Source of the DNA: Escherichia coli | GTDB taxonomy: Bacteria > Pseudomonadota > Gammaproteobacteria > Enterobacterales > Enterobacteriaceae | DNA length: 64,000 nucleotides | Reading direction: 5' to 3' (one strand) | NCBI RefSeq assembly: GCF_041248615.1 | Contig: NZ_CP158426.1 | Part shown: in pieces, positions 11,310 through 28,548 of the stretch | How the letters are laid out: every line of letters starts with the position of its first letter | Numbering within the stretch: the first letter of the stretch is position 1 | Made by a program: the position numbers and the translations under genes | The notes under the pieces: model-generated | Database searches by the model: none | Seen by the model: only the letters and a program-made list of their open reading frames with translations | Told to the model about the DNA's origin: nothing

Positions 11310-11684
11310 TTATGAGGTGGTTGCGGGTGCCAGTGTCGGATAAACAGCCATATAAACGTAACCACAGGAGCCGAGGGTGTCGGCTTCACAGGCCAGCCCC
11401 TTCGCATACAGTGTCACGGTATGCTGATGGCGGGGATTCAGTTCACCGCTGGTGAGCATGAGCTCCAGTTGTTTCATCAGCAGCGGAAAGGCCTGGTCCA
11501 GGTGGTACGCATCTGCATCGCTGAACAGGCCTCTGATACCGGCGCGGTCGGCAAGGTAATGCAACCGGTTACCCTCCTGCACCAGACGTGCCCCGAAACA
11601 GGGCGTCACGGTGCAGGGCAGCCCCCACCAGGGGCGGTCGTGATTGTCGTCGGGAAGTGTTGTCCCGGGGAGTGTGTCTGACAC
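11310..11684 (-). CDS. cbeA: antitoxin CbeA (YeeU family)
   Basis: 124-aa ORF MSDTLPGTT...HQHTVTLYAKGL... matches YeeU/CbeA; directly upstream of cbtA. Confidence 0.85.
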   Translation of the reverse strand: MSDTLPGTTLPDDNHDRPWWGLPCTVTPCFGARLVQEGNRLHYLADRAGIRGLFSDADAYHLDQAFPLLMKQLELMLTSGELNPRHQHTVTLYAKGLACEADTLGSCGYVYMAVYPTLAPATTS

Positions 11685-12049: not shown

Positions 12050-12526
12050 TTAAAGCAGACCGTGTTCCGCAAAGGAGAAAACCTGGCTGCCACCGACTAT
12101 CAGATGGTCCGGTACCCGGATATCCACCAGGCCCAGTGCCTGTACCAGACGTTCCGTGATAAGGCGGTCTGCCTTGCTGGGTGTGACTTCACCGGACGGG
12201 TGATTGTGTGCCAGCACCACGGCAGCGGCATTGTGGTGCAGGGCGCGTTTAATCACCTCCCGGGGATGGACTTCCGTGCGGTTGATGGTGCCGGTGAAGA
12301 GGGTTTCACCGGCAATCAGCTGATTCTGGTTATTCAGATACAGCACCCGGAATTCTTCACGCTCCAGTCCCGCCATGTTCAGAATCAGCCATTCCCGTGC
12401 CGCACGGGTGGAGGTGAAGGCCACGCCGGGTTCATGAAGATGGCGGTCCAGGGTTTTCAGGGCCCGCTGAATGAGACTGCGCTCGCCGGGCGTCATTTCT
12501 CCGGGCAGAAAGGAAATCTGTTGCAT
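12050..12526 (-). CDS. yeeS: RadC-like JAB-domain protein (YeeS/YkfG/YfjY family)
   Basis: 158-aa ORF with the HNHPSG JAMM motif. Confidence 0.85.
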   Translation of the reverse strand: MQQISFLPGEMTPGERSLIQRALKTLDRHLHEPGVAFTSTRAAREWLILNMAGLEREEFRVLYLNNQNQLIAGETLFTGTINRTEVHPREVIKRALHHNAAAVVLAHNHPSGEVTPSKADRLITERLVQALGLVDIRVPDHLIVGGSQVFSFAEHGLL

Positions 12527-12541: not shown

Positions 12542-13027
12542 TCAGTCAATAATGCGCATAATGGCGTCGTATTCCGGATGTTGCAGGGCGTAATCCCGCA
12601 GCCGGTAATAATGGACCGTCATGGCATAACACTCCGTACGACAGGCATGATGACTGTACGTCATCAGACAGGCAGCAATGCCGGCGGCTTCCGGGCTCAT
12701 TTCAGCGCGGTTACTGTTCATGACATTGAACAGTACCCATGTTTCGTCATCATCGTCATCCGGTTCGGGTGCCATAAATGCCCCTCCGTTATTCAGTGTG
12801 TACAGATTCCAGATACCACCGCAGTAGTCTTCACACAGACGGTCCATCCAGCCGAAGACACGGGGCTCCAGGGTCACCCACTGTGGAATGAGGCCAAAGT
12901 GCTGTGGCCAGAAGCTGATGCACTGTTCATCAGGGACGGGAGTGGCAACCAGTTGAGACTGGTTATTCCCTGATGCAGTAGTTACGGAAACAGAAGGTGT
13001 GGTGGAATTATGTGAAACGGTTGTCAT
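12542..13027 (-). CDS. antirestriction protein (ArdB/KlcA family, YfjX/YafX-like)
   Basis: Conserved ...FWPQHFG...WMDRLCEDY...YTLNNGGAFMAP... sequence; start placed at the second Met, alternative start at 13051. Confidence 0.8.
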   Translation of the reverse strand: MTTVSHNSTTPSVSVTTASGNNQSQLVATPVPDEQCISFWPQHFGLIPQWVTLEPRVFGWMDRLCEDYCGGIWNLYTLNNGGAFMAPEPDDDDDETWVLFNVMNSNRAEMSPEAAGIAACLMTYSHHACRTECYAMTVHYYRLRDYALQHPEYDAIMRIID

Positions 13028-13117
13028 GATATTATTCCTTATAAAAAGCAAATGAATGAAGAAGGCTCGGGGGCAGGGACAGACGTGAGTCAGGACGGCG
13101 CTTTCAGGTAAACGGTA

Positions 13118-13936
13118 TCAGCGCATGTTCTCCAGCAGCGTTTCCGCCATCACCCATAATGCGCGATTGAGCTTAATATCGGTGTCGATGCTGTGAATGG
13201 CCCGGGTATGGATACGTTTTCCTCTGGCACTGCGGCCGGAAATTCCGCCTTTCAGCATATTCTCCTGGATGGTCTGATATGCGCTCCACAGGTCCTTACC
13301 GTAATCCTCCCTGCGTCGTGGCGTAAGAATGTCAGCGGTGGTGACGGGCTGATGTTCGTCACCATAACGGTAAGTCAGGGCCGCCTGTGCCAGCGCCTGG
13401 CGTGCCGGTGGCGGCAGGACCAGCGACTGCATGGCATCACGCTTCTCCTCTATCCGGTCAAACACGCCCACCACCTCGTAAGCCCCTTCGATAACTTTCT
13501 CCACTACATTTCCCCGGTGTGGAACACGCACTTCCCCCAGAGACTGGCCACAGACGCACCCGTTCTGGCAGACGAACCTGAAGTAACCCGGCAGCATCTG
13601 GTAGCTGGAGGTACCGTCATGAGAGTTGAGCAGAATAATTTCAGGGACATGTTCTCCGTTTATCTCTCCGGCCCGCCGCAGACGCAGCATGTGTTTGGTA
13701 TATTCCCGGCGGCTCTGGTCGCGCACACGGGTCTGGCAGGCGAAGAACGGCTGAAAGCCTTCCCGCTGCAGATTTTCCAGGACGGTAATGGTGGGAATGT
13801 ACGCATACCGTTCACTGCGGGAGGTGTGCCGGTCTTCCCCAAAAATACTGGGTACATGGCGTATCAGTTCTTCATGTGTCAGCGGACGGTCACGGCGTAT
13901 CTGGTTTACATGACCAAAACGACTTGCTAATCGCAT
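13118..13936 (-). CDS. DUF932-family protein (YfjQ/YafZ-like)
   Basis: 272-aa ORF in the position typical of CP4-type modules. Confidence 0.75.
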   Translation of the reverse strand: MRLASRFGHVNQIRRDRPLTHEELIRHVPSIFGEDRHTSRSERYAYIPTITVLENLQREGFQPFFACQTRVRDQSRREYTKHMLRLRRAGEINGEHVPEIILLNSHDGTSSYQMLPGYFRFVCQNGCVCGQSLGEVRVPHRGNVVEKVIEGAYEVVGVFDRIEEKRDAMQSLVLPPPARQALAQAALTYRYGDEHQPVTTADILTPRRREDYGKDLWSAYQTIQENMLKGGISGRSARGKRIHTRAIHSIDTDIKLNRALWVMAETLLENMR

Positions 13937-20136: not shown

Positions 20137-21009
20137 TCAGAAGAAAATCCAGTTCCATACCGCGCGGGCAACAGAGACCACGGTGTCACGGACGGCACGC
20201 AGAACCGTACGAGCCACAGAGGCAACACAGACGCTCTCCGCCGTGTCAAATATCCGGTCCACCGCACCGGTAAACTGTTCACGGGCCTGCCCCCGGACAG
20301 ATTCCGTGCACAGCTCGTCCTGCAGGCGGGTCATCAGGGGACTGGCGGCATGGTCGGGAAGTGCTGTCATGAGCGCACTGACCAGCGTATCCAGTTCCCA
20401 GCCGGTGCGGGCCGATACGGCCACAACCGGATGTACGGGCCGGAACAGCCGGAATACCGCATCTGTTTTCTCACGAATGTTCTGTTCCTGTGCGGGAGAA
20501 GGCTGAATACCTGCCATATCCCATTCATGGCAGGGCTCCGTTTTGTCGGCCTGCGTCACCACAAACAGCACCTGCTGATGTCCCCGGTGCAGGATGTGTC
20601 GCCAGAAATAGTCATCCACAGACAGGGCCCGGTCATCGGCTTTAATCAGCCACAGTACCAGGTCAAGTTCAGGCAGAATGTCACGGTACAGGGCTTCATA
20701 CTCTGCATCCCTGTCCCGGCTCTCGCCCACCCCGGGCAGGTCAGTGATAACCATGCTGTGACCATGGCCACTCAGACGGAAGCGCTGCACTTCCCGGGTG
20801 CCGGCGTGAACATCACTGACCGGGGTGACCTCCCCCTGAAACAGTGCATTACAGAGTGAGGATTTACCGGCCCCGCTTTTTCCCATAATGCCAATCACGG
20901 GTTCGTGGCTGGTGAGTTTGCGCAGATGTTCCAGGATGTGACGGGAAAGTGAGTAAGGCAGGGAGGAGAGCGGTTTTTCAATTGCCTCAATGGCATCAGA
21001 CGGATTCAT
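20137..21009 (-). CDS. YeeP/YkfA-family GTPase
   Basis: P-loop GKSGAGKSS; start trimmed to internal Met, alternative start at 21072; position upstream of agn43 as in CP4-44. Confidence 0.75.
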   Translation of the reverse strand: MNPSDAIEAIEKPLSSLPYSLSRHILEHLRKLTSHEPVIGIMGKSGAGKSSLCNALFQGEVTPVSDVHAGTREVQRFRLSGHGHSMVITDLPGVGESRDRDAEYEALYRDILPELDLVLWLIKADDRALSVDDYFWRHILHRGHQQVLFVVTQADKTEPCHEWDMAGIQPSPAQEQNIREKTDAVFRLFRPVHPVVAVSARTGWELDTLVSALMTALPDHAASPLMTRLQDELCTESVRGQAREQFTGAVDRIFDTAESVCVASVARTVLRAVRDTVVSVARAVWNWIFF

Positions 21010-21238
21010 ACATGTATTCCCGGTGAAAAAAGACAAAACCCCGCGCACCGGAAAGGTGGCGGGGGGATTCACGGAGATAATATCTGCCTGAAATTATTTG
21101 GAATGCAGGTATATGTGGCTGATTTGTATCAGCTAATGAGTACAGGTCTGAATCTAATCTGACAGTCCGCTCTGTGCCAGGAGCGGACATTGTTTTCCAA
21201 CTATTACCTAAGCCTGCGAACCATCTCATCTTCACCCC

Positions 21239-24800: not shown

Positions 24801-26559
24801 CGCAATCCTTTTATTTCTGGCGTACGCTCTTTAAGGCATCCGGCTGAGAGGCTAATGATCACTCCTCGCTCACAACGGACCTTCAGCTCAGCCGCTCCGG
24901 CCGCTTCATGCCATGAATGTACGCAGCCAGTCAGAATATTAAGGTGCGGATTTCAGTTCACTTGTCAGCCCAGTGATACAGGACAGTAATGACCAACAAT
25001 TTGGTATTGATACAACAAGTTGCGGCCCCGGTTCGTGGGGGAGATGAAACGACGGTAGCTGAAGTTACTGAAATGAAGAATTCAGAGAGACTGAATGATA
25101 TGCCTCACCTTTAGTGAATAGTGTAAAAACGGGAGACTCTCACCCGAGATTATCCACTCATGCTCAATGTATAATTTTCGTGCCCCTCACAGGTAAGAGC
25201 CGGATGCATTCGTTGTGTACGTTGCAGAATTGGTAACCGGGGACCCTGCAGTCTTTAACTCCGAGTCTTGTGCTGCTCATTTGCCACAAAATCCTGGTAC
25301 GCCAGCTCAATCATTTCATTCAACAGTTTTTTTGGGGGGCACCACGACTTCGGGCAATACTTTCAGGCTGTTTGTGGATTTTTCCGGACAGTTTCAGCGG
25401 AACGGAACCATCAGCACGTTCATCACGCCTTTTTTGTTGCTCCCGGGCACTTTTCAGTTCATCCACAATATAGCTGCTCTTCTCGCATTTTTGCCGATTT
25501 TAAAAATGCGAACAAAACATCCGTACATGATGTACAGATTAAACTGCCAGGGACTGGTGTCAGAAAGCCTCCGGTTAGCCTGCTCTTTCCGGAATGTGCC
25601 GGTTATGAAAAACCGGAAATTCAGTCTCTGTTGTAAGATGTACCCTCTGATACTACGTTTTCGTTTTCTCTGTGTATTTAACTCACTGTATTTATTGTCT
25701 TTTTAAGCCTGACTGATATTCTCCGGTCATAGTGTGCCGGATAGACATCCCGTAACCTTCTCATTTTTATATAAAAATACCTGCACTGTCTTCAGCGCAT
25801 CTGTCTCCTTTAAGTAAAAAATGTTTTCACGTATTGCTGTAAATTCATTTTAAATCAGTATGTTATCCTGATATTGCTGTCTCCTGGTTTGATGCGTAAT
25901 CGTTCTGCCTTTCTGGATGATTCTGGTGCTTCCGGGTGCATTCTCCTCTGCACATGCAACAGTTCGTCATCGCCACGTGCCCAAAAAGCATATAAAAACG
26001 AATCGAATCTGATCGTTTTTTCAATCGTTTTTCACAGGAATTTCGTAGGGTGTTCTCCGCTATAGCCTCCATATTTGCTGTCTTTTTCTTCATAAATCGT
26101 ATGCAATATAACCAGTCTGTCAAGACATCTTCCCTGCTGTTGAGGTGACGATCTCATTTCTGGTCTTTTCCGGGAGAGAGACGGTCAGATGAGCGAGCCG
26201 GATTTACTGCCAGAGGTACTCCCCGCGGCAGAAAATAGTGCTCCTGTTTCCGCAATCCGGGATCGGCAACGTCCCATGGTTAATGCCACTTGCAGCGTCA
26301 GGCACTGCAGGTTTACGTCGTGATCTGATTTCTTCTGCACTTATCCCGATCACGGAAGTTCCCCCTGCGCAGACATCGGTTCCTGCCGACATCTCACAAT
26401 ACCGCCAGGCTGTCATGCAGTAACACCCGCAATGCGGTCTGCGGTTTTAAGCGCACTCTCCTGTTTTCAGTGCACCGATAAGCGTTATAGAAAGTCTGGG
26501 GTGAGTTACTGAATGTCTGTTAAGTGGTGCCGTGGGTGGAGACTGCTTACTTTTCCACA

Positions 26560-27260
26560 GCAACTGCAGTCATTCAGGATGCTCAGGAGAGAATATGTCA
26601 ACGCCACGAGCCGGGCCATTTTCATGCCAGCCAGTATATTTTCTACACTGATGCAGTCTGATTTTCACCATTCCATCCTCACTGATTGTCGTGTTGTTTT
26701 GGGTCATCACCACAGCTTTCCGTTTCTCTTTTAATCGGTAACGCTCTCCTTTGATATTCAGCGTGGTTGAGTGATGCAGCAGTCAATCCAGGAGCGCTGT
26801 TGTCCGGCAACCACCATATCAACTTCTTCCCGGCGTGCCGGCGCTGGTATCCAGGCCGGGTTTCGAAGCGAAGCGTTCCTGACGGACTCATTGACATCCG
26901 GGCCGGATGTAGTCATGCAGCATGGAACGTCCGCCCGTATACACTGACGGCGTCCGGCCGTGTACAGAGATCGGTAAAATTCGTTACTACAACTGTTCCT
27001 GAATATCTGACGAAGAAACATTCAGCAATAACATCCGGCCGTGTACATCTCTTTTGCGGTGCAGGGAGCACTGTCGCCATGTACTTATTGTCACCAGGGT
27101 GAGGCATGTACCGCAGCATGCCAGCTCAGCAATGACAGGATGCCCTTAAGACATCCGTCATGGCTCAGTATGATGACGACGAACACGCTCTGCAGGTGAG
27201 CATGCAGGGCCGGGGGTATCATCATTTCCGTATTTTGCCGCACCTTCCGGAAACAACCGG
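26560..27260 (-). pseudogene. decayed coding region with frameshifts downstream of the 205-aa gene
   Basis: Several short minus-strand ORFs in different frames read like pieces of one protein (e.g. ...LNIKGERYRLKEKRKAVVMTQNNTTISEDGMVKIRLHQCRKYTGWHENGPARGVDIFSPEHPE*); no intact ORF. Confidence 0.3.
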
Positions 27261-27262
27261 CA

Positions 27263-27880
27263 TCAGTTACGGTTACCGTCAACCGTTGTGCGGTATGCCA
27301 GGAGCACGTACTGATCCATCAGATCCGTCAGTGCTGCGTTCTGCTTCTGACGGTCGATGATCCATTCCCCCAGCTCTTTTTCTGATTTCCGTTTCAGGTT
27401 CTCCGTCCAGTCGTCAAGGCTGTTTCCGGTCATTAAATCAAGCCAGCAAAGCCAGACCAGTTTGAGGCGCAACTCCGTGCCACCAAACTGACGGAAGAGG
27501 CTGATCAGTTTATTTGCCAGAGAACGCTGCCTCAGACGTTCACATTCAGACAGCAGAATCCCTTCCAGCATCGGATGATGAACCAGCAGATGTTCGCTGG
27601 TGCATAAGTTCACCACCAGATCATCATCCAGGGGCGGCGTGGCCCGTTTGTCAGAGCCATAAATCAGCCGGTGCAGACTCCGGGGTACGATGGCAATCTT
27701 CGGTTTTTCACCATTGAATGACACCCACCCGGGCGTCAGATTATGGAAGTAGTGGATATTCGGATGACACACGCCCCAGGATACGGCGTGCCGGGTGAAG
27801 CCGGTCAGCCATTTCTGGTAGCTTTCGTGGAGCAGCTCGTAACGGGTCTGATACTGTGGTTTCATTTTCATATTCCTCAC
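27263..27880 (-). CDS. hypothetical protein downstream of alpA
   Basis: 205-aa ORF co-directional with and 79 bp downstream of alpA; no family recognised. Confidence 0.55.
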   Translation of the reverse strand: MRNMKMKPQYQTRYELLHESYQKWLTGFTRHAVSWGVCHPNIHYFHNLTPGWVSFNGEKPKIAIVPRSLHRLIYGSDKRATPPLDDDLVVNLCTSEHLLVHHPMLEGILLSECERLRQRSLANKLISLFRQFGGTELRLKLVWLCWLDLMTGNSLDDWTENLKRKSEKELGEWIIDRQKQNAALTDLMDQYVLLAYRTTVDGNRN

Positions 27881-27958
27881 GGGGGATAACAGGCAGCAGA
27901 GTGCCGCCGGCAGGCCGGAGATTGCGTCTGCTGTGGGCGAAGGGCCAGTGGTTAAAAA

Positions 27959-28165
27959 TTACGGACGGGACTGTGCAATACGCGCCTGCAGCCAGGCTTC
28001 CACTTCACTTTTCAGCCAGCGGGAGCTGCGGCCGAGTTTGATGGGAGCCGGAAAGGCCCCATCCTTGATGAGCTTGTAAAACCACTTATCGGTCAGGCCG
28101 GTCAGCTGAGTGATAAACGTCATATCGACCATCTGGTCATCCATCAGCGAAACTGGGGTGGTCAT
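27959..28165 (-). CDS. alpA: AlpA-family phage transcriptional regulator (MerR-like HTH)
   Basis: 68-aa ORF; ...MTFITQLTGLTDKWFYKLIKDGAFPAPIKLGRSSRWLKSEVEAWL is the AlpA/Prophage_CP4-57_regulator pattern. Confidence 0.7.
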   Translation of the reverse strand: MTTPVSLMDDQMVDMTFITQLTGLTDKWFYKLIKDGAFPAPIKLGRSSRWLKSEVEAWLQARIAQSRP

Positions 28166-28548
28166 AAAAATCTTCTCCGGATGTTGTTAATCTCAGCCGG
28201 CGTTGATGATGAAAACAACGCACCACCTTCACCGGCATAACAACCGGGGAGAAACGTAAAAAATCAGTAGGGGAATATTCCTGCCAGGAGAGAAACTGTT
28301 GTGTACAGGCAATACAGGTTGTCTGTTTTGTCAGTGAAGCCGGTATAAACGGAAGATGATTTTGTGTTGCCGGAATATGGGATGGCGTTTTGCCGTGACA
28401 GGATCAGTATTTTCAGTGATGATTATTACTGTGCAGGGGAGTACCGGAGATAAACCACGCCCTGTACCTGCCAGAGCGGAGGTTTGTATTGACTGAACGG
28501 AAGATAAAGCGAGGTAAACACTGTTGCGGTGAGCGGAGAAGACTGAGA

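What the first reader, a model, noticed from the sequence alone, without database searches (positions are those of the whole stretch)
26560..27880. Unrecognised 205-aa gene after alpA followed by a frameshifted remnant
The 205-aa ORF 79 bp downstream of alpA has no family I can name. Immediately downstream, several short ORFs in different frames read like pieces of one decayed protein. This suggests an operon undergoing erosion.
Basis: seen in the sequence. Interest (0 to 1): 0.35.

Follow-up and report, generated by a model that had tools for sequence, protein, structure and literature searches.

The report
Orphan alpA-partner gene plus IS21 relic
Next to the island regulator gene alpA lies a real, conserved gene for a 200-residue protein that matches no known family or fold, and the "broken gene" after it is only the dead remains of an IS21-type jumping gene, not a decaying operon.

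Summary
On the minus strand, alpA (27959-28165) is followed by a conserved gene. Its product is probably 200 aa (27263-27865); the 205-aa ORF is just the longest possible reading.

The protein ("X") belongs to a small orphan family found only in Enterobacterales genomic islands. It has no Pfam, NCBIfam, PHROG or PADLOC match. It has no PDB relative by sequence, and none by fold despite a confident model (pLDDT 87). dN/dS is 0.07-0.44.

In 37 of 41 species-level loci X sits directly after alpA, usually beside an inovirus-Gp2-like replication gene. It lies at the edge of a highly variable cargo slot rich in anti-phage defence genes. The alpA-X spacer holds a conserved, covarying stem-loop that is not in Rfam.

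The "frameshifted remnant" is not a decayed operon member. Window 26615-26941 is a dead IS21-family insertion sequence. An istA piece (residues ~82-131, two frameshifts) is joined by a ~1.4-kb deletion to an istB piece (residues 214-265, with a stop). The same relic is shared by thousands of E. coli genomes.

The operon is not eroding; a transposon corpse lies in the cargo slot. X's function is unproven. I favour an AlpA-linked role in island activation.

The parts
27959..28165 (-). alpA: 68-aa AlpA-family helix-turn-helix regulator, first gene of the pair
   Evidence: PF05930 at 37 bits (cut-off 21) and PF12728. phrog_66 and phrog_2790 'excisionase and transcriptional regulator'. RefSeq WP_001305352.1.
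27887..27938 (-). Conserved two-helix stem-loop in the alpA-X spacer: an outer helix CAGCAGA/TCTGCTG encloses a hairpin CCGG-CCTG-CCGG. It has no Rfam family.
   Evidence: Seen by eye in 29 spacers. Covariance model R1 was built from 10 other genera. It hits this site at 22.9 bits, E about 0.002-0.003, and 37 of its 42 hits lie in the alpA-X spacer of other loci. 85.6% of cells are paired against 34-51% for slid controls; covariation score 0.235 against 0.05-0.08. Five loci give the same minimum-energy architecture. No Rfam match.
27263..27865 (-). Gene X: 200-aa orphan protein, the conserved partner of alpA. Alternative upstream starts are ATG 27871 (202 aa, RefSeq) and GTG 27880 (205 aa, the ORF in the finding).
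27048..27262 (.). Non-coding tail downstream of X. It is island backbone, shared with a related island that has no IS relic.
   Evidence: 94.5% identity over 27119-27263 and 84% over 27048-27123 to L010, which has no match to the IS21-family reference. The short ORFs here have no family hits.
26942..27047 (.). Unassigned stretch between the backbone tail and the recognisable IS fragment. It is shared only with relic-bearing islands such as L011. It contains 14-nt direct repeats of the TCCGGCCGTGTACA type.
   Evidence: 83% identity to L011 5250-5447, and no match in L010 beyond 27048. Repeats. tblastx finds no IstA similarity here.
26799..26941 (-). IS21-family istA (transposase) fragment, about residues 82-131, broken by at least two frameshifts
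   Evidence: blastn: 81.8% over 148 nt to istA nt 246-393 of the IS21-family element on pETEC_80 (L012), E 6e-35. tblastx finds YTGGRSMLHDYIRP, TLRFETRPGYQ and EEVDMVVAGQQRS in three different frames. RefSeq annotates the homologous site in L009 as an 'IS21 family transposase' pseudogene.
26648..26803 (-). IS21-family istB (AAA+ helper ATPase) C-terminal fragment, residues 214-265, with an in-frame stop. It is joined directly to the istA fragment by an internal deletion of about 1.4 kb.
   Evidence: tblastn with IstB WP_000544814.1: 69% identity over 52 aa, E 7e-18. IS100 IstB: 55%, E 2e-10. In-frame stop (TALLD*LLHHSTTLNIKGERYRLKEKRK). RefSeq 'AAA family ATPase' pseudogene at the same place.
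26615..26647 (-). Non-coding 3' tail of the IS21-family element, after the istB stop
   Evidence: The nucleotide match to L012 runs on to L012 3693, 29 nt past the istB stop (84.0% over 188 nt, E 2e-54).

Best explanation
Shown:
- The window is a tRNA-Phe-integrated island of the CP4-57/CP4-44/SRL-PAI type.
- On its minus strand, alpA and a 200-aa gene (X) form a conserved two-gene backbone unit, separated by a 93-nt spacer that carries a conserved stem-loop.
- X is a genuine protein-coding gene under purifying selection. It belongs to a small family seen almost only in Enterobacterales, with no known sequence family and no recognisable solved fold.
- The unit sits next to an inovirus-Gp2-like (rolling-circle type) replication gene and marks the edge of the island's variable cargo slot.
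- In this window the first thing in that slot is the corpse of an IS21-family insertion sequence. It is an istA piece with frameshifts, fused by a ~1.4-kb deletion to an istB tail with a stop codon. Cargo follows (MFS transporter, hydrolase, LysR regulator).
- The relic is old and drifting, and has nothing to do with the alpA operon.

Inferred (about 35% for this specific role): X is co-transcribed with alpA. It acts in the AlpA-controlled activation of the island, meaning excision, Gp2-like-dependent replication, or read-through transcription into downstream genes. It would do so as an accessory or regulatory factor. The stem-loop would tune how much transcription or translation passes from alpA into X.
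For: Island context: tRNA-Phe; P4-type integrase, Gp2-like/YagK-YfjJ genes, GTPase, DUF932, antirestriction, RadC and CbtA; RefSeq annotation of an identical region.

X is real:
- Homologues of 175-200 aa at 22-93% identity in Escherichia, Salmonella, Klebsiella, Yersinia, Serratia, Hafnia, Photorhabdus, Providencia, Pectobacterium and others.
- dN/dS 0.07-0.44.
- Confident AF2 model.

X is an orphan.

Linkage to alpA:
- alpA lies upstream on the same strand in 37 of 41 species loci. Three of the other four are cut by a contig end.
- The spacer is 65-107 nt in 29 loci, including the 28-31%-identity subfamily.
- A Gp2-like gene lies directly before alpA or directly after X in at least 29 of 41 loci.

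Stem-loop. Frequent G-U pairs fit the transcribed strand.

Cargo slot:
- 121 Pfam families among 124 downstream proteins from 32 loci. They include type I R-M, Dnd, GmrSD, Thoeris TIR, Hachiman HamA and ars genes (also 12, 13, 34-36).
- 115 of 157 downstream ORFs of at least 150 aa are co-oriented with X.

IS21 relic:
-.
- The same deletion junction is present at 87% identity in L009 and in most of the ~2,600 E. coli records that match at 80-90% identity.

Precedents:
- P. aeruginosa AlpA loads onto RNA polymerase and lets it bypass terminators placed just upstream of its target genes (PMC7969949, PMC9371919).
- AlpA is the activator of Gram-negative PICIs (PMC6092414).
- AlpA is part of the core of Pseudomonas islands, together with a Gp2-like gene (PMC12595487).
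Against: - There is no direct evidence for X's function. Guilt by association is all there is.
- No transcript data show that alpA and X are co-transcribed.
- The stem-loop has a T-run (terminator-like) in only one clade. The window copy lacks it, and its folding energy is not unusual on its own (z -0.55).
- The pair counts were made on an alignment fitted to the model.
- X evolves much faster than AlpA and occurs as tandem paralogues in some loci. That pattern is more typical of conflict genes than of housekeeping mobility factors.
- The terminal inverted repeats and target duplication of the IS relic were not found.
- The stretch 26942-27047 is unassigned.
Confidence: 0.65

Rival explanations
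1. One reading: the short ORFs after X are the decayed remains of one further gene of the alpA operon, so the operon is eroding.
For: The fragments are co-oriented with alpA and X and lie within 320 nt of X's stop. They are truly degraded coding sequence.
Against: They match two IS21-family proteins, IstA and IstB, in IS order, with the IS tail attached. RefSeq labels them the same way. Island L010 has the same backbone without them. alpA and X are intact and constrained. Other genera have different genes at this position.
Confidence: 0.03
2. X is not a mobility or regulatory factor. It is a conflict gene: anti-defence, defence, or exclusion of rival elements or phages. It would be the fixed first gene of the cargo slot, expressed when AlpA switches the island on.
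For: X borders a slot filled with defence systems. It diverges fast (22-93% identity) while the neighbouring AlpA keeps strong matches (E 1e-28 to 1e-35). Second or tandem X paralogues occur in L015, L026, L035 and L036. The fold has no solved relative, which is common for anti-defence proteins.
Against: No PADLOC hit for any of 49 members. X keeps a fixed position and spacer after alpA whatever the cargo is. It is essentially absent from phage genomes (1 dubious hit in 50,697 records) and from true plasmids. dN/dS is well below 1.
Confidence: 0.25
3. The 205-aa ORF is a chance ORF or a dead gene, with no function.
For: No family assignment. It is annotated only as 'hypothetical protein'.
Against: It is conserved across at least 19 genera with invariant motifs (SEC-RL, LCW). 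dN/dS is 0.07-0.44. The AF2 model has pLDDT 87. There is a good Shine-Dalgarno before the conserved MK start.
Confidence: 0.01
4. The spacer stem-loop acts at the DNA level rather than as an RNA element. It could be a single-strand origin or nick site for the Gp2-like rolling-circle initiator, or a protein-binding palindrome.
For: It always lies within about 1 kb of a Gp2-like gene. Rolling-circle initiators commonly act on hairpin-forming origins (general knowledge).
Against: Many G-U pairs are tolerated on the sense strand (UG and GU in 7-14 sequences at several pairs). On the other strand these would be C-A mismatches, so a double-strand palindrome is unlikely. A single-stranded DNA form of the sense strand is not excluded. 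In the window the Gp2-like gene is 2.8 kb away on the other strand.
Confidence: 0.15

Closest known systems
IS21-family insertion sequences (istA transposase plus istB AAA+ helper; e.g. the IS21-like element on E. coli E24377A plasmid pETEC_80, and IS100)
   Same: The remnant at 26615-26941 matches istA then istB, in the right order and orientation, with the element's 3' tail. Nucleotide identity is 82-84% and IstB amino-acid identity is 69%.
   Different: Only about 330 nt of a roughly 2-kb element are recognisable. There is an internal ~1.4-kb deletion, at least two frameshifts and a stop codon. No terminal repeats or target duplication were found. It cannot transpose.
SRL pathogenicity island of Shigella flexneri: orf39 (YfjJ/Gp2-like), orf40 (Hha), orf41 (Vis/AlpA-like), orf42 ('no similarity'), then orf46 (YeeP-like GTPase) and Ag43 (table in PMC6980539)
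   Same: Same gene order as in the window: Gp2-like, Hha, alpA, an unassignable gene, then GTPase and Ag43. orf42 is very probably the X orthologue.
   Different: The equivalence rests on synteny only; I did not compare the sequences. No function has been published for orf42 either.
AlpA of E. coli CP4-57 and of Gram-negative PICIs (activator of integrase or island genes), and AlpA of P. aeruginosa (processive antiterminator; PMC7969949, PMC9371919, PMC6092414)
   Same: The upstream gene is an AlpA-family protein. A hairpin lies immediately upstream of the next gene, as the terminators do in the P. aeruginosa targets.
   Different: In CP4-57, alpA is followed by yfjI (DUF3987), not by X (own knowledge; the SRL PAI orf2 row in PMC6980539 is consistent). 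PICIs carry primase-replicase and packaging genes, not a Gp2-like gene. Here the hairpin follows alpA itself and is terminator-like in only one clade. No AlpA-binding element was looked for.
Pseudomonas tmRNA-integrated genomic islands I23/I44/I55 (tyrosine integrase, AlpA, inovirus Gp2-like protein, RadC and variable defence cargo; moved by a jumbo phage; PMC12595487)
   Same: Same kind of element: an integrase at a small-RNA gene, a core of AlpA, Gp2-like and RadC, and variable cargo rich in defence systems.
   Different: Different host order, and different integration site (tmRNA rather than tRNA-Phe). The exhaustive profile search returned only 124 cluster representatives, and apart from two MAG contigs labelled Clostridiales/Bacillota, every locus recovered from the species genomes was Enterobacterales. 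X therefore appears to be missing from those Pseudomonas islands.

Membership tests
IS21 family insertion sequence (for 26615-26941) | An istA-type transposase gene | tested here: met
   A fragment only. 81.8% nt identity over 148 nt to istA nt 246-393 (E 6e-35). Conserved peptides YTGGRSML and RFET-PGYQ.
IS21 family insertion sequence (for 26615-26941) | An istB AAA+ helper ATPase gene directly downstream of istA, same orientation | tested here: met
   C-terminal 52 residues: 69% identity, E 7e-18. Order and orientation are kept.
IS21 family insertion sequence (for 26615-26941) | Intact reading frames, i.e. a functional element | tested here: not met
   A ~1.4-kb internal deletion, at least two frameshifts in istA, and an in-frame stop in istB. 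It is a relic, not a live member.
IS21 family insertion sequence (for 26615-26941) | Terminal inverted repeats and a target-site duplication | tested here: inconclusive
   No terminal repeat pair was found in the reference copy L012. The left boundary in the window lies somewhere in 26942-27047.
AlpA family, Pfam PF05930 (for 27959-28165) | Score above Pfam's gathering threshold | tested here: met
   37 bits against a cut-off of 21.
Any described protein family or solved fold (for X, 27263-27865) | Significant match to a Pfam, NCBIfam, PHROG or PADLOC model, or to a PDB chain by sequence or structure | tested here: not met
AlpA-dependent antitermination unit (P. aeruginosa alpBCDE type) | An intrinsic terminator just upstream of the regulated gene | tested here: inconclusive
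   A conserved hairpin lies 20-30 nt before X's ribosome-binding site. It is followed by GGTTTTCT only in the Serratia/Yersinia/Hafnia-type clade. The window copy has no T-run and was not flagged by the terminator scan.
AlpA-dependent antitermination unit (P. aeruginosa alpBCDE type) | An AlpA-binding element in the promoter, and AlpA loading onto RNA polymerase | not testable with these tools
   Needs ChIP, in-vitro transcription or reporter assays.
CP4-57/CP4-44/SRL-PAI-type integrative island (context of the finding) | A tRNA-adjacent tyrosine integrase plus the YeeP-like GTPase, DUF932, antirestriction, RadC and CbtA block | tested here: met
   tRNA-Phe at 43752-43827. Integrase at 42292-43554, GTPase at 20137-21072, DUF932 at 13118-13936, antirestriction at 12542-13051, RadC at 12050-12526, CbtA at 10886-11407.
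Phage-inducible chromosomal island (Gram-negative PICI) | Primase-replicase and phage-packaging or capsid-redirecting genes in a compact element next to int and alpA | not tested
   Only selected ORFs were scanned. Those near alpA are Gp2-like, Hha and hypothetical proteins, which does not suggest a PICI.

The most novel reading that the evidence does not exclude
alpA, the stem-loop and X together form an undescribed regulatory module of enterobacterial tRNA-integrated islands. In this reading X, a protein with a fold not seen in the PDB, works with AlpA. It could be a co-factor, an antagonist, or a sensor of phage infection or of entry into a new host. Together they would decide when the island excises, replicates through its Gp2-like initiator, or transcribes through into its defence cargo. 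The covarying stem-loop would be a new cis-regulatory RNA gating that read-through.
Probability: 0.3. Interest if true: 0.6.

Novelty: new variant of a known kind. Interest (0 to 1): 0.4.

Why it matters
Islands of this type are in most E. coli genomes; this region matches in 3953 of 5426 complete genomes. They carry adhesins, toxin-antitoxin pairs and, in the slot just after X, a changing set of anti-phage defence systems.

How these "cryptic prophage" islands are switched on and moved is poorly understood. A gene that has travelled with alpA across the whole order Enterobacterales, together with a conserved stem-loop between the two genes, is a concrete and cheap target for experiments on island activation and on expression of the defence cargo.

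The IS21 relic itself is ordinary. It is useful mainly as a correction to annotation ('AAA family ATPase' pseudogene) and as a lineage marker for these islands.

Tried and rejected
- Family searches with X, the short ORFs and the neighbouring 263-aa gene in Pfam, NCBIfam and PHROGs gave nothing for any of them except alpA. Searches with 20-49 relatives of X in Pfam and PADLOC gave nothing consistent.
- The PDB profile search gave only E 1.1 noise.
- The exhaustive profile search added only fragments and a few 175-198-aa distant members, with no annotated relative.
- RNAalifold on the plain MAFFT alignment of the spacers found only 2 pairs, because the 5' strand of the outer helix is misaligned between clades. 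I replaced it with a covariance model built from one clade.
- A weak Rfam CRISPR-DR13 hit at 26639-26668 (27.9 bits against a gathering score of 37, E 0.25) lies in the IS tail. I dismissed it as chance.
- The promoter/terminator scan around the operon was no richer than shuffled sequence.
- A search for terminal inverted repeats of the IS in the reference copy failed.
- Phage and plasmid collections gave one unverified low-coverage 'phage' contig and nine 'plasmid' records, several of chromosome size. This is no evidence that X is phage- or plasmid-borne.
- A second alpA copy seen in the related strain L001 is not present in the window.
- I considered modelling an AlpA-X fusion to test binding. 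I dropped it because the tool returns no interface or PAE data.
Full report
**What is at the coordinates**

All features below are on the minus strand.
- A 68-aa gene lies at 27959-28165.
- A 205-aa ORF lies at 27263-27880, starting 78 nt after the 68-aa gene's stop.
- Five short ORFs of 47-87 aa, in different frames, lie between 26570 and 27282.

The 68-aa gene is a clear AlpA-family member (PF05930, 37 bits against a cut-off of 21). The 205-aa ORF has no hit in Pfam, NCBIfam or PHROGs.

One refinement concerns the start codon. All relatives start 'MK'. In the window a GAGGA lies 8 nt before the ATG at 27865. The product is therefore most likely 200 aa; RefSeq aa (WP_000782652.1). I call this gene X.

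**Where the window comes from**

The stretch 26400-28250 is 100% identical to many E. coli chromosomes and matches in 3953 of 5426 complete genomes. The window carries:
- tRNA-Phe at 43752-43827;
- next to it a P4-type integrase (42292-43554);
- two Gp2-like/YagK-YfjJ genes;
- a YeeP-like GTPase, DUF932, an antirestriction gene, RadC and CbtA.

This is an integrative island of the CP4-57/CP4-44 kind. The published gene table of the Shigella SRL island shows the same local order. It runs YfjJ/Gp2-like, Hha, Vis/AlpA-like orf41, orf42 'no similarity', then the GTPase and Ag43 (PMC6980539). X has therefore been seen and left unnamed since 2001. That equivalence rests on synteny, not on a sequence comparison.

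**X is a real gene of an orphan family**

*Distribution.*
- A word-indexed search found 188 homologues. All are 'hypothetical' and carry no Pfam domain of their own. They come from Escherichia, Salmonella, Klebsiella, Yersinia, Hafnia, Serratia, Cronobacter and Pantoea, at about 55-97% identity.
- An exhaustive profile search of 1.84 billion cluster representatives returned only 124 proteins. Most are fragments, plus a few full-length distant members at 22-32% identity.
- A scan of one genome for each of 100,044 species gave 41 loci. All are Enterobacterales except two MAG contigs labelled Clostridiales/Bacillota, which are probably mis-binned.

*Constraint.* Pairwise dN/dS is 0.07-0.44. Invariant residues cluster in two motifs, G-L-SEC-RL (residues 102-111) and L-C-W (139-141), plus Y16 and Y186.

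*Structure.*
- With a 49-sequence alignment, AlphaFold2 gives a confident model (pLDDT 87.1, pTM 0.86). It has a long N-terminal helix, a beta hairpin and a seven-helix C-terminal bundle.
- BFVD gives nothing, and the PDB sequence profile search gives E 1.1.
- PADLOC finds none of the 49 members.

X is essentially absent from phage genomes and from true plasmids.

**What X travels with**

*Linkage to alpA.* In 37 of the 41 species loci an alpA homologue lies upstream on the same strand. Three of the other four are cut by a contig end, and the fourth is a decayed copy. The spacer is 65-107 nt in 29 measured loci, including the subfamily that is only 28-31% identical to the window protein.

*Linkage to a Gp2-like gene.* A Gp2-like (REP_ORF2-G2P / YagK-YfjJ) gene lies directly before alpA or directly after X in at least 29 loci.

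*What comes after.* Beyond this unit the content changes from locus to locus.
- Among 124 downstream proteins from 32 non-redundant loci there are 121 different Pfam families. They include type I restriction-modification, Dnd, GmrSD, Thoeris-type TIR, Hachiman HamA, WYL and arsenic resistance.
- Individual loci show BREX/DISARM-like sets, Dnd, a VgrG effector set and LlaJI/McrBC-like genes.
- 115 of 157 downstream ORFs of at least 150 aa point the same way as X.

X is thus a backbone gene at the edge of the island's cargo slot.

**A conserved stem-loop between alpA and X**

This was not part of the finding, but it bears on how the pair works. The spacers share an outer helix (GCAGCA.../...TGCTGC) enclosing a hairpin (TCCGG-loop-CCGGA), with visible compensatory changes.

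A covariance model was built from ten sequences of one clade.
- It finds the element in the alpA-X spacer of 37 loci.
- In the window it hits 27887-27938, minus strand, at 22.9 bits, E about 0.002-0.003.
- Only five hits, all weak, lie elsewhere in 728 kb.

On the model-fitted alignment:

| Measure | Structure | Controls with the 3' partner slid |
|---|---|---|
| Cells paired | 85.6% | 34-51% |
| Covariation score | 0.235 | 0.05-0.08 |
| Cells changed on both sides | 22 | 2-9 |

The fit to the model inflates these numbers somewhat. Independent minimum-energy folds of five copies all give the same architecture. Their z-scores are -2.4 to -3.05 for four copies and -0.55 for the GC-rich window copy.

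Frequent G-U pairs fit the sense strand, that is the alpA-X transcript. Rfam has no such family. A T-run after the inner hairpin exists only in one clade, so the element is not a conserved canonical terminator.

**The remnant**

A search with 26420-27262 alone shows three pieces with different histories.
- The first 144 nt after X occur at about 93% identity in other islands.
- Positions 26420-26942 occur at about 87% identity in most of the roughly 2,600 records that match at 80-90% identity, under RefSeq pseudogenes named 'IS21 family transposase' and 'AAA family ATPase'.
- A core also matches intact istB genes on plasmids.

I compared the window with the IS21-family element of plasmid pETEC_80.

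| Window (minus strand) | Matches | Identity |
|---|---|---|
| 26941-26799 | istA nt 246-393 | 81.8% |
| 26802-26615 | last 158 nt of istB plus 29 nt of the element's tail | 84.0% |

IstB residues 214-265 align at 69% identity (E 7e-18). About 1.4 kb between the two pieces is missing.

Translated comparison shows the IstA peptides YTGGRSMLHDYIRP, TLRFETRPGYQ and EEVDMVVAGQQRS in three different frames. It also shows an in-frame stop in the IstB piece. It is in fact two proteins of one insertion sequence.

The alignment to island L009 runs unbroken through the deletion junction at 87% identity. The relic is therefore old and inherited, not a recent event.

Island L010 has the same alpA-X-tail backbone (down to 27048) and no IS21 sequence at all. 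So 27048-27262 is backbone non-coding tail and the IS is an insertion into it. The stretch 26942-27047 is shared only with relic-bearing islands. It carries 14-nt direct repeats and could not be assigned.

Further down, 25200-26620 is conserved in 2,098 genomes. It contains the remains of the hypothetical gene that normally precedes the GTPase gene.

**How it most likely works**

*Shown:* gene order, conservation, constraint, the stem-loop, the variable slot, and the IS identity.

*Inferred:* alpA and X are co-transcribed. AlpA-family proteins switch on integrases or island operons (PMC6092414, PMC12595487). In P. aeruginosa, AlpA rides on RNA polymerase to bypass terminators placed just before its target genes (PMC7969949, PMC9371919).

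My preferred reading is that X is an accessory or regulatory factor of this AlpA-led activation step. That step could be excision, Gp2-like-dependent replication, or read-through into co-oriented cargo. The stem-loop would set how much expression passes from alpA to X. I put about 35% on this specific role.

The main rival (about 25%) is that X is a conflict gene, such as anti-defence or exclusion, fixed at the head of the cargo slot. This would fit its fast divergence, its occasional tandem paralogues and its unmatched fold. Against it stand its constant position and the lack of any defence-model hit.

The 'eroding operon' reading is rejected.

**Novelty and verdict**

The IS21 relic is ordinary. 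X is known to databases only as a hypothetical protein and to the literature as 'no similarity'.

New here are four results:
- X is a family seen almost only in Enterobacterales, with no detectable relatives by sequence or solved structure.
- X is tied to alpA across the whole order.
- X marks the border of a defence-rich cargo slot.
- A covarying stem-loop sits between alpA and X.

I rate this a new variant of a known kind (AlpA-led island modules), of moderate interest. Its value lies mostly in making island activation testable.

Noticed in passing
window 27887-27938 (-): Conserved, covarying two-helix stem-loop in the alpA-X spacer, found in 37 loci of many genera. No Rfam family. It is terminator-like (a T-run follows) in only one clade.
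   Followed up: yes
window 27160-27360 (+): RefSeq annotates a 66-aa 'hypothetical protein' (WP_011076196.1) antisense to the 3' end of X and the tail after it. A similar call exists in L010 (4906-5103). A promoter-like site (27146-27174) and a terminator-like site (27211-27230) lie on that strand. It is probably a spurious call, but I did not test it.
   Followed up: no
window 26930-27047: Three direct copies of a 14-nt motif (TCCGGCCGTGTACA; two exact, one at 86%) lie in the unassigned stretch between the backbone tail and the istA fragment. They could be IS21-type terminal repeats or slippage products.
   Followed up: no
window 25200-26620: This stretch is conserved in 2,098 E. coli genomes. 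In most it appears as three pieces spread over about 2.3 kb, so the window copy carries deletions. RefSeq marks a frameshifted pseudogene at about 25255-25466. It looks like the remains of the hypothetical gene that precedes the YeeP-like GTPase gene in related islands.
   Followed up: partly
window 31517-32725 (+): A Mutator-family (IS256-type) transposase gene lies just after the Gp2-like gene. The locally identical strain L001 has only a 372-nt gap there, so this is a strain-specific IS insertion.
   Followed up: partly
L015 7273-7848 and 7962-8525; L026 6995-7588 and 10040-10624; also L035, L036: Some islands carry two X paralogues from different subfamilies, in tandem or a few kb apart. 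This hints at diversification of the family.
   Followed up: partly
L029 and L034: Two metagenome-assembled genomes labelled Clostridiales/Bacillota carry alpA-X loci 62-63% identical to the window protein and typical of Enterobacterales. These are most likely mis-binned contigs.
   Followed up: no
P0128 (319 aa): A database protein joins an unrelated N-terminal region of about 215 residues to the C-terminal 100 residues of an E. coli-type X. It is probably a deletion or an assembly artefact, not a true domain fusion.
   Followed up: no
L060 (OR851001.1, 3,578 nt): An 'UNVERIFIED_ORG' low-coverage contig from a Salmonella phage preparation encodes an X homologue (33% identity). It could be host DNA carry-over or packaged island DNA.
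   Followed up: no
loci L019-L059, up to 6.5 kb downstream of X: 115 of 157 ORFs of at least 150 aa downstream of X are co-oriented with alpA-X. This would suit read-through transcription from the alpA promoter into the cargo.
   Followed up: partly
window 26639-26668 (-): A weak Rfam CRISPR-DR13 match (27.9 bits against a gathering score of 37, E 0.25) inside the IS21 tail. Judged to be chance.
   Followed up: no
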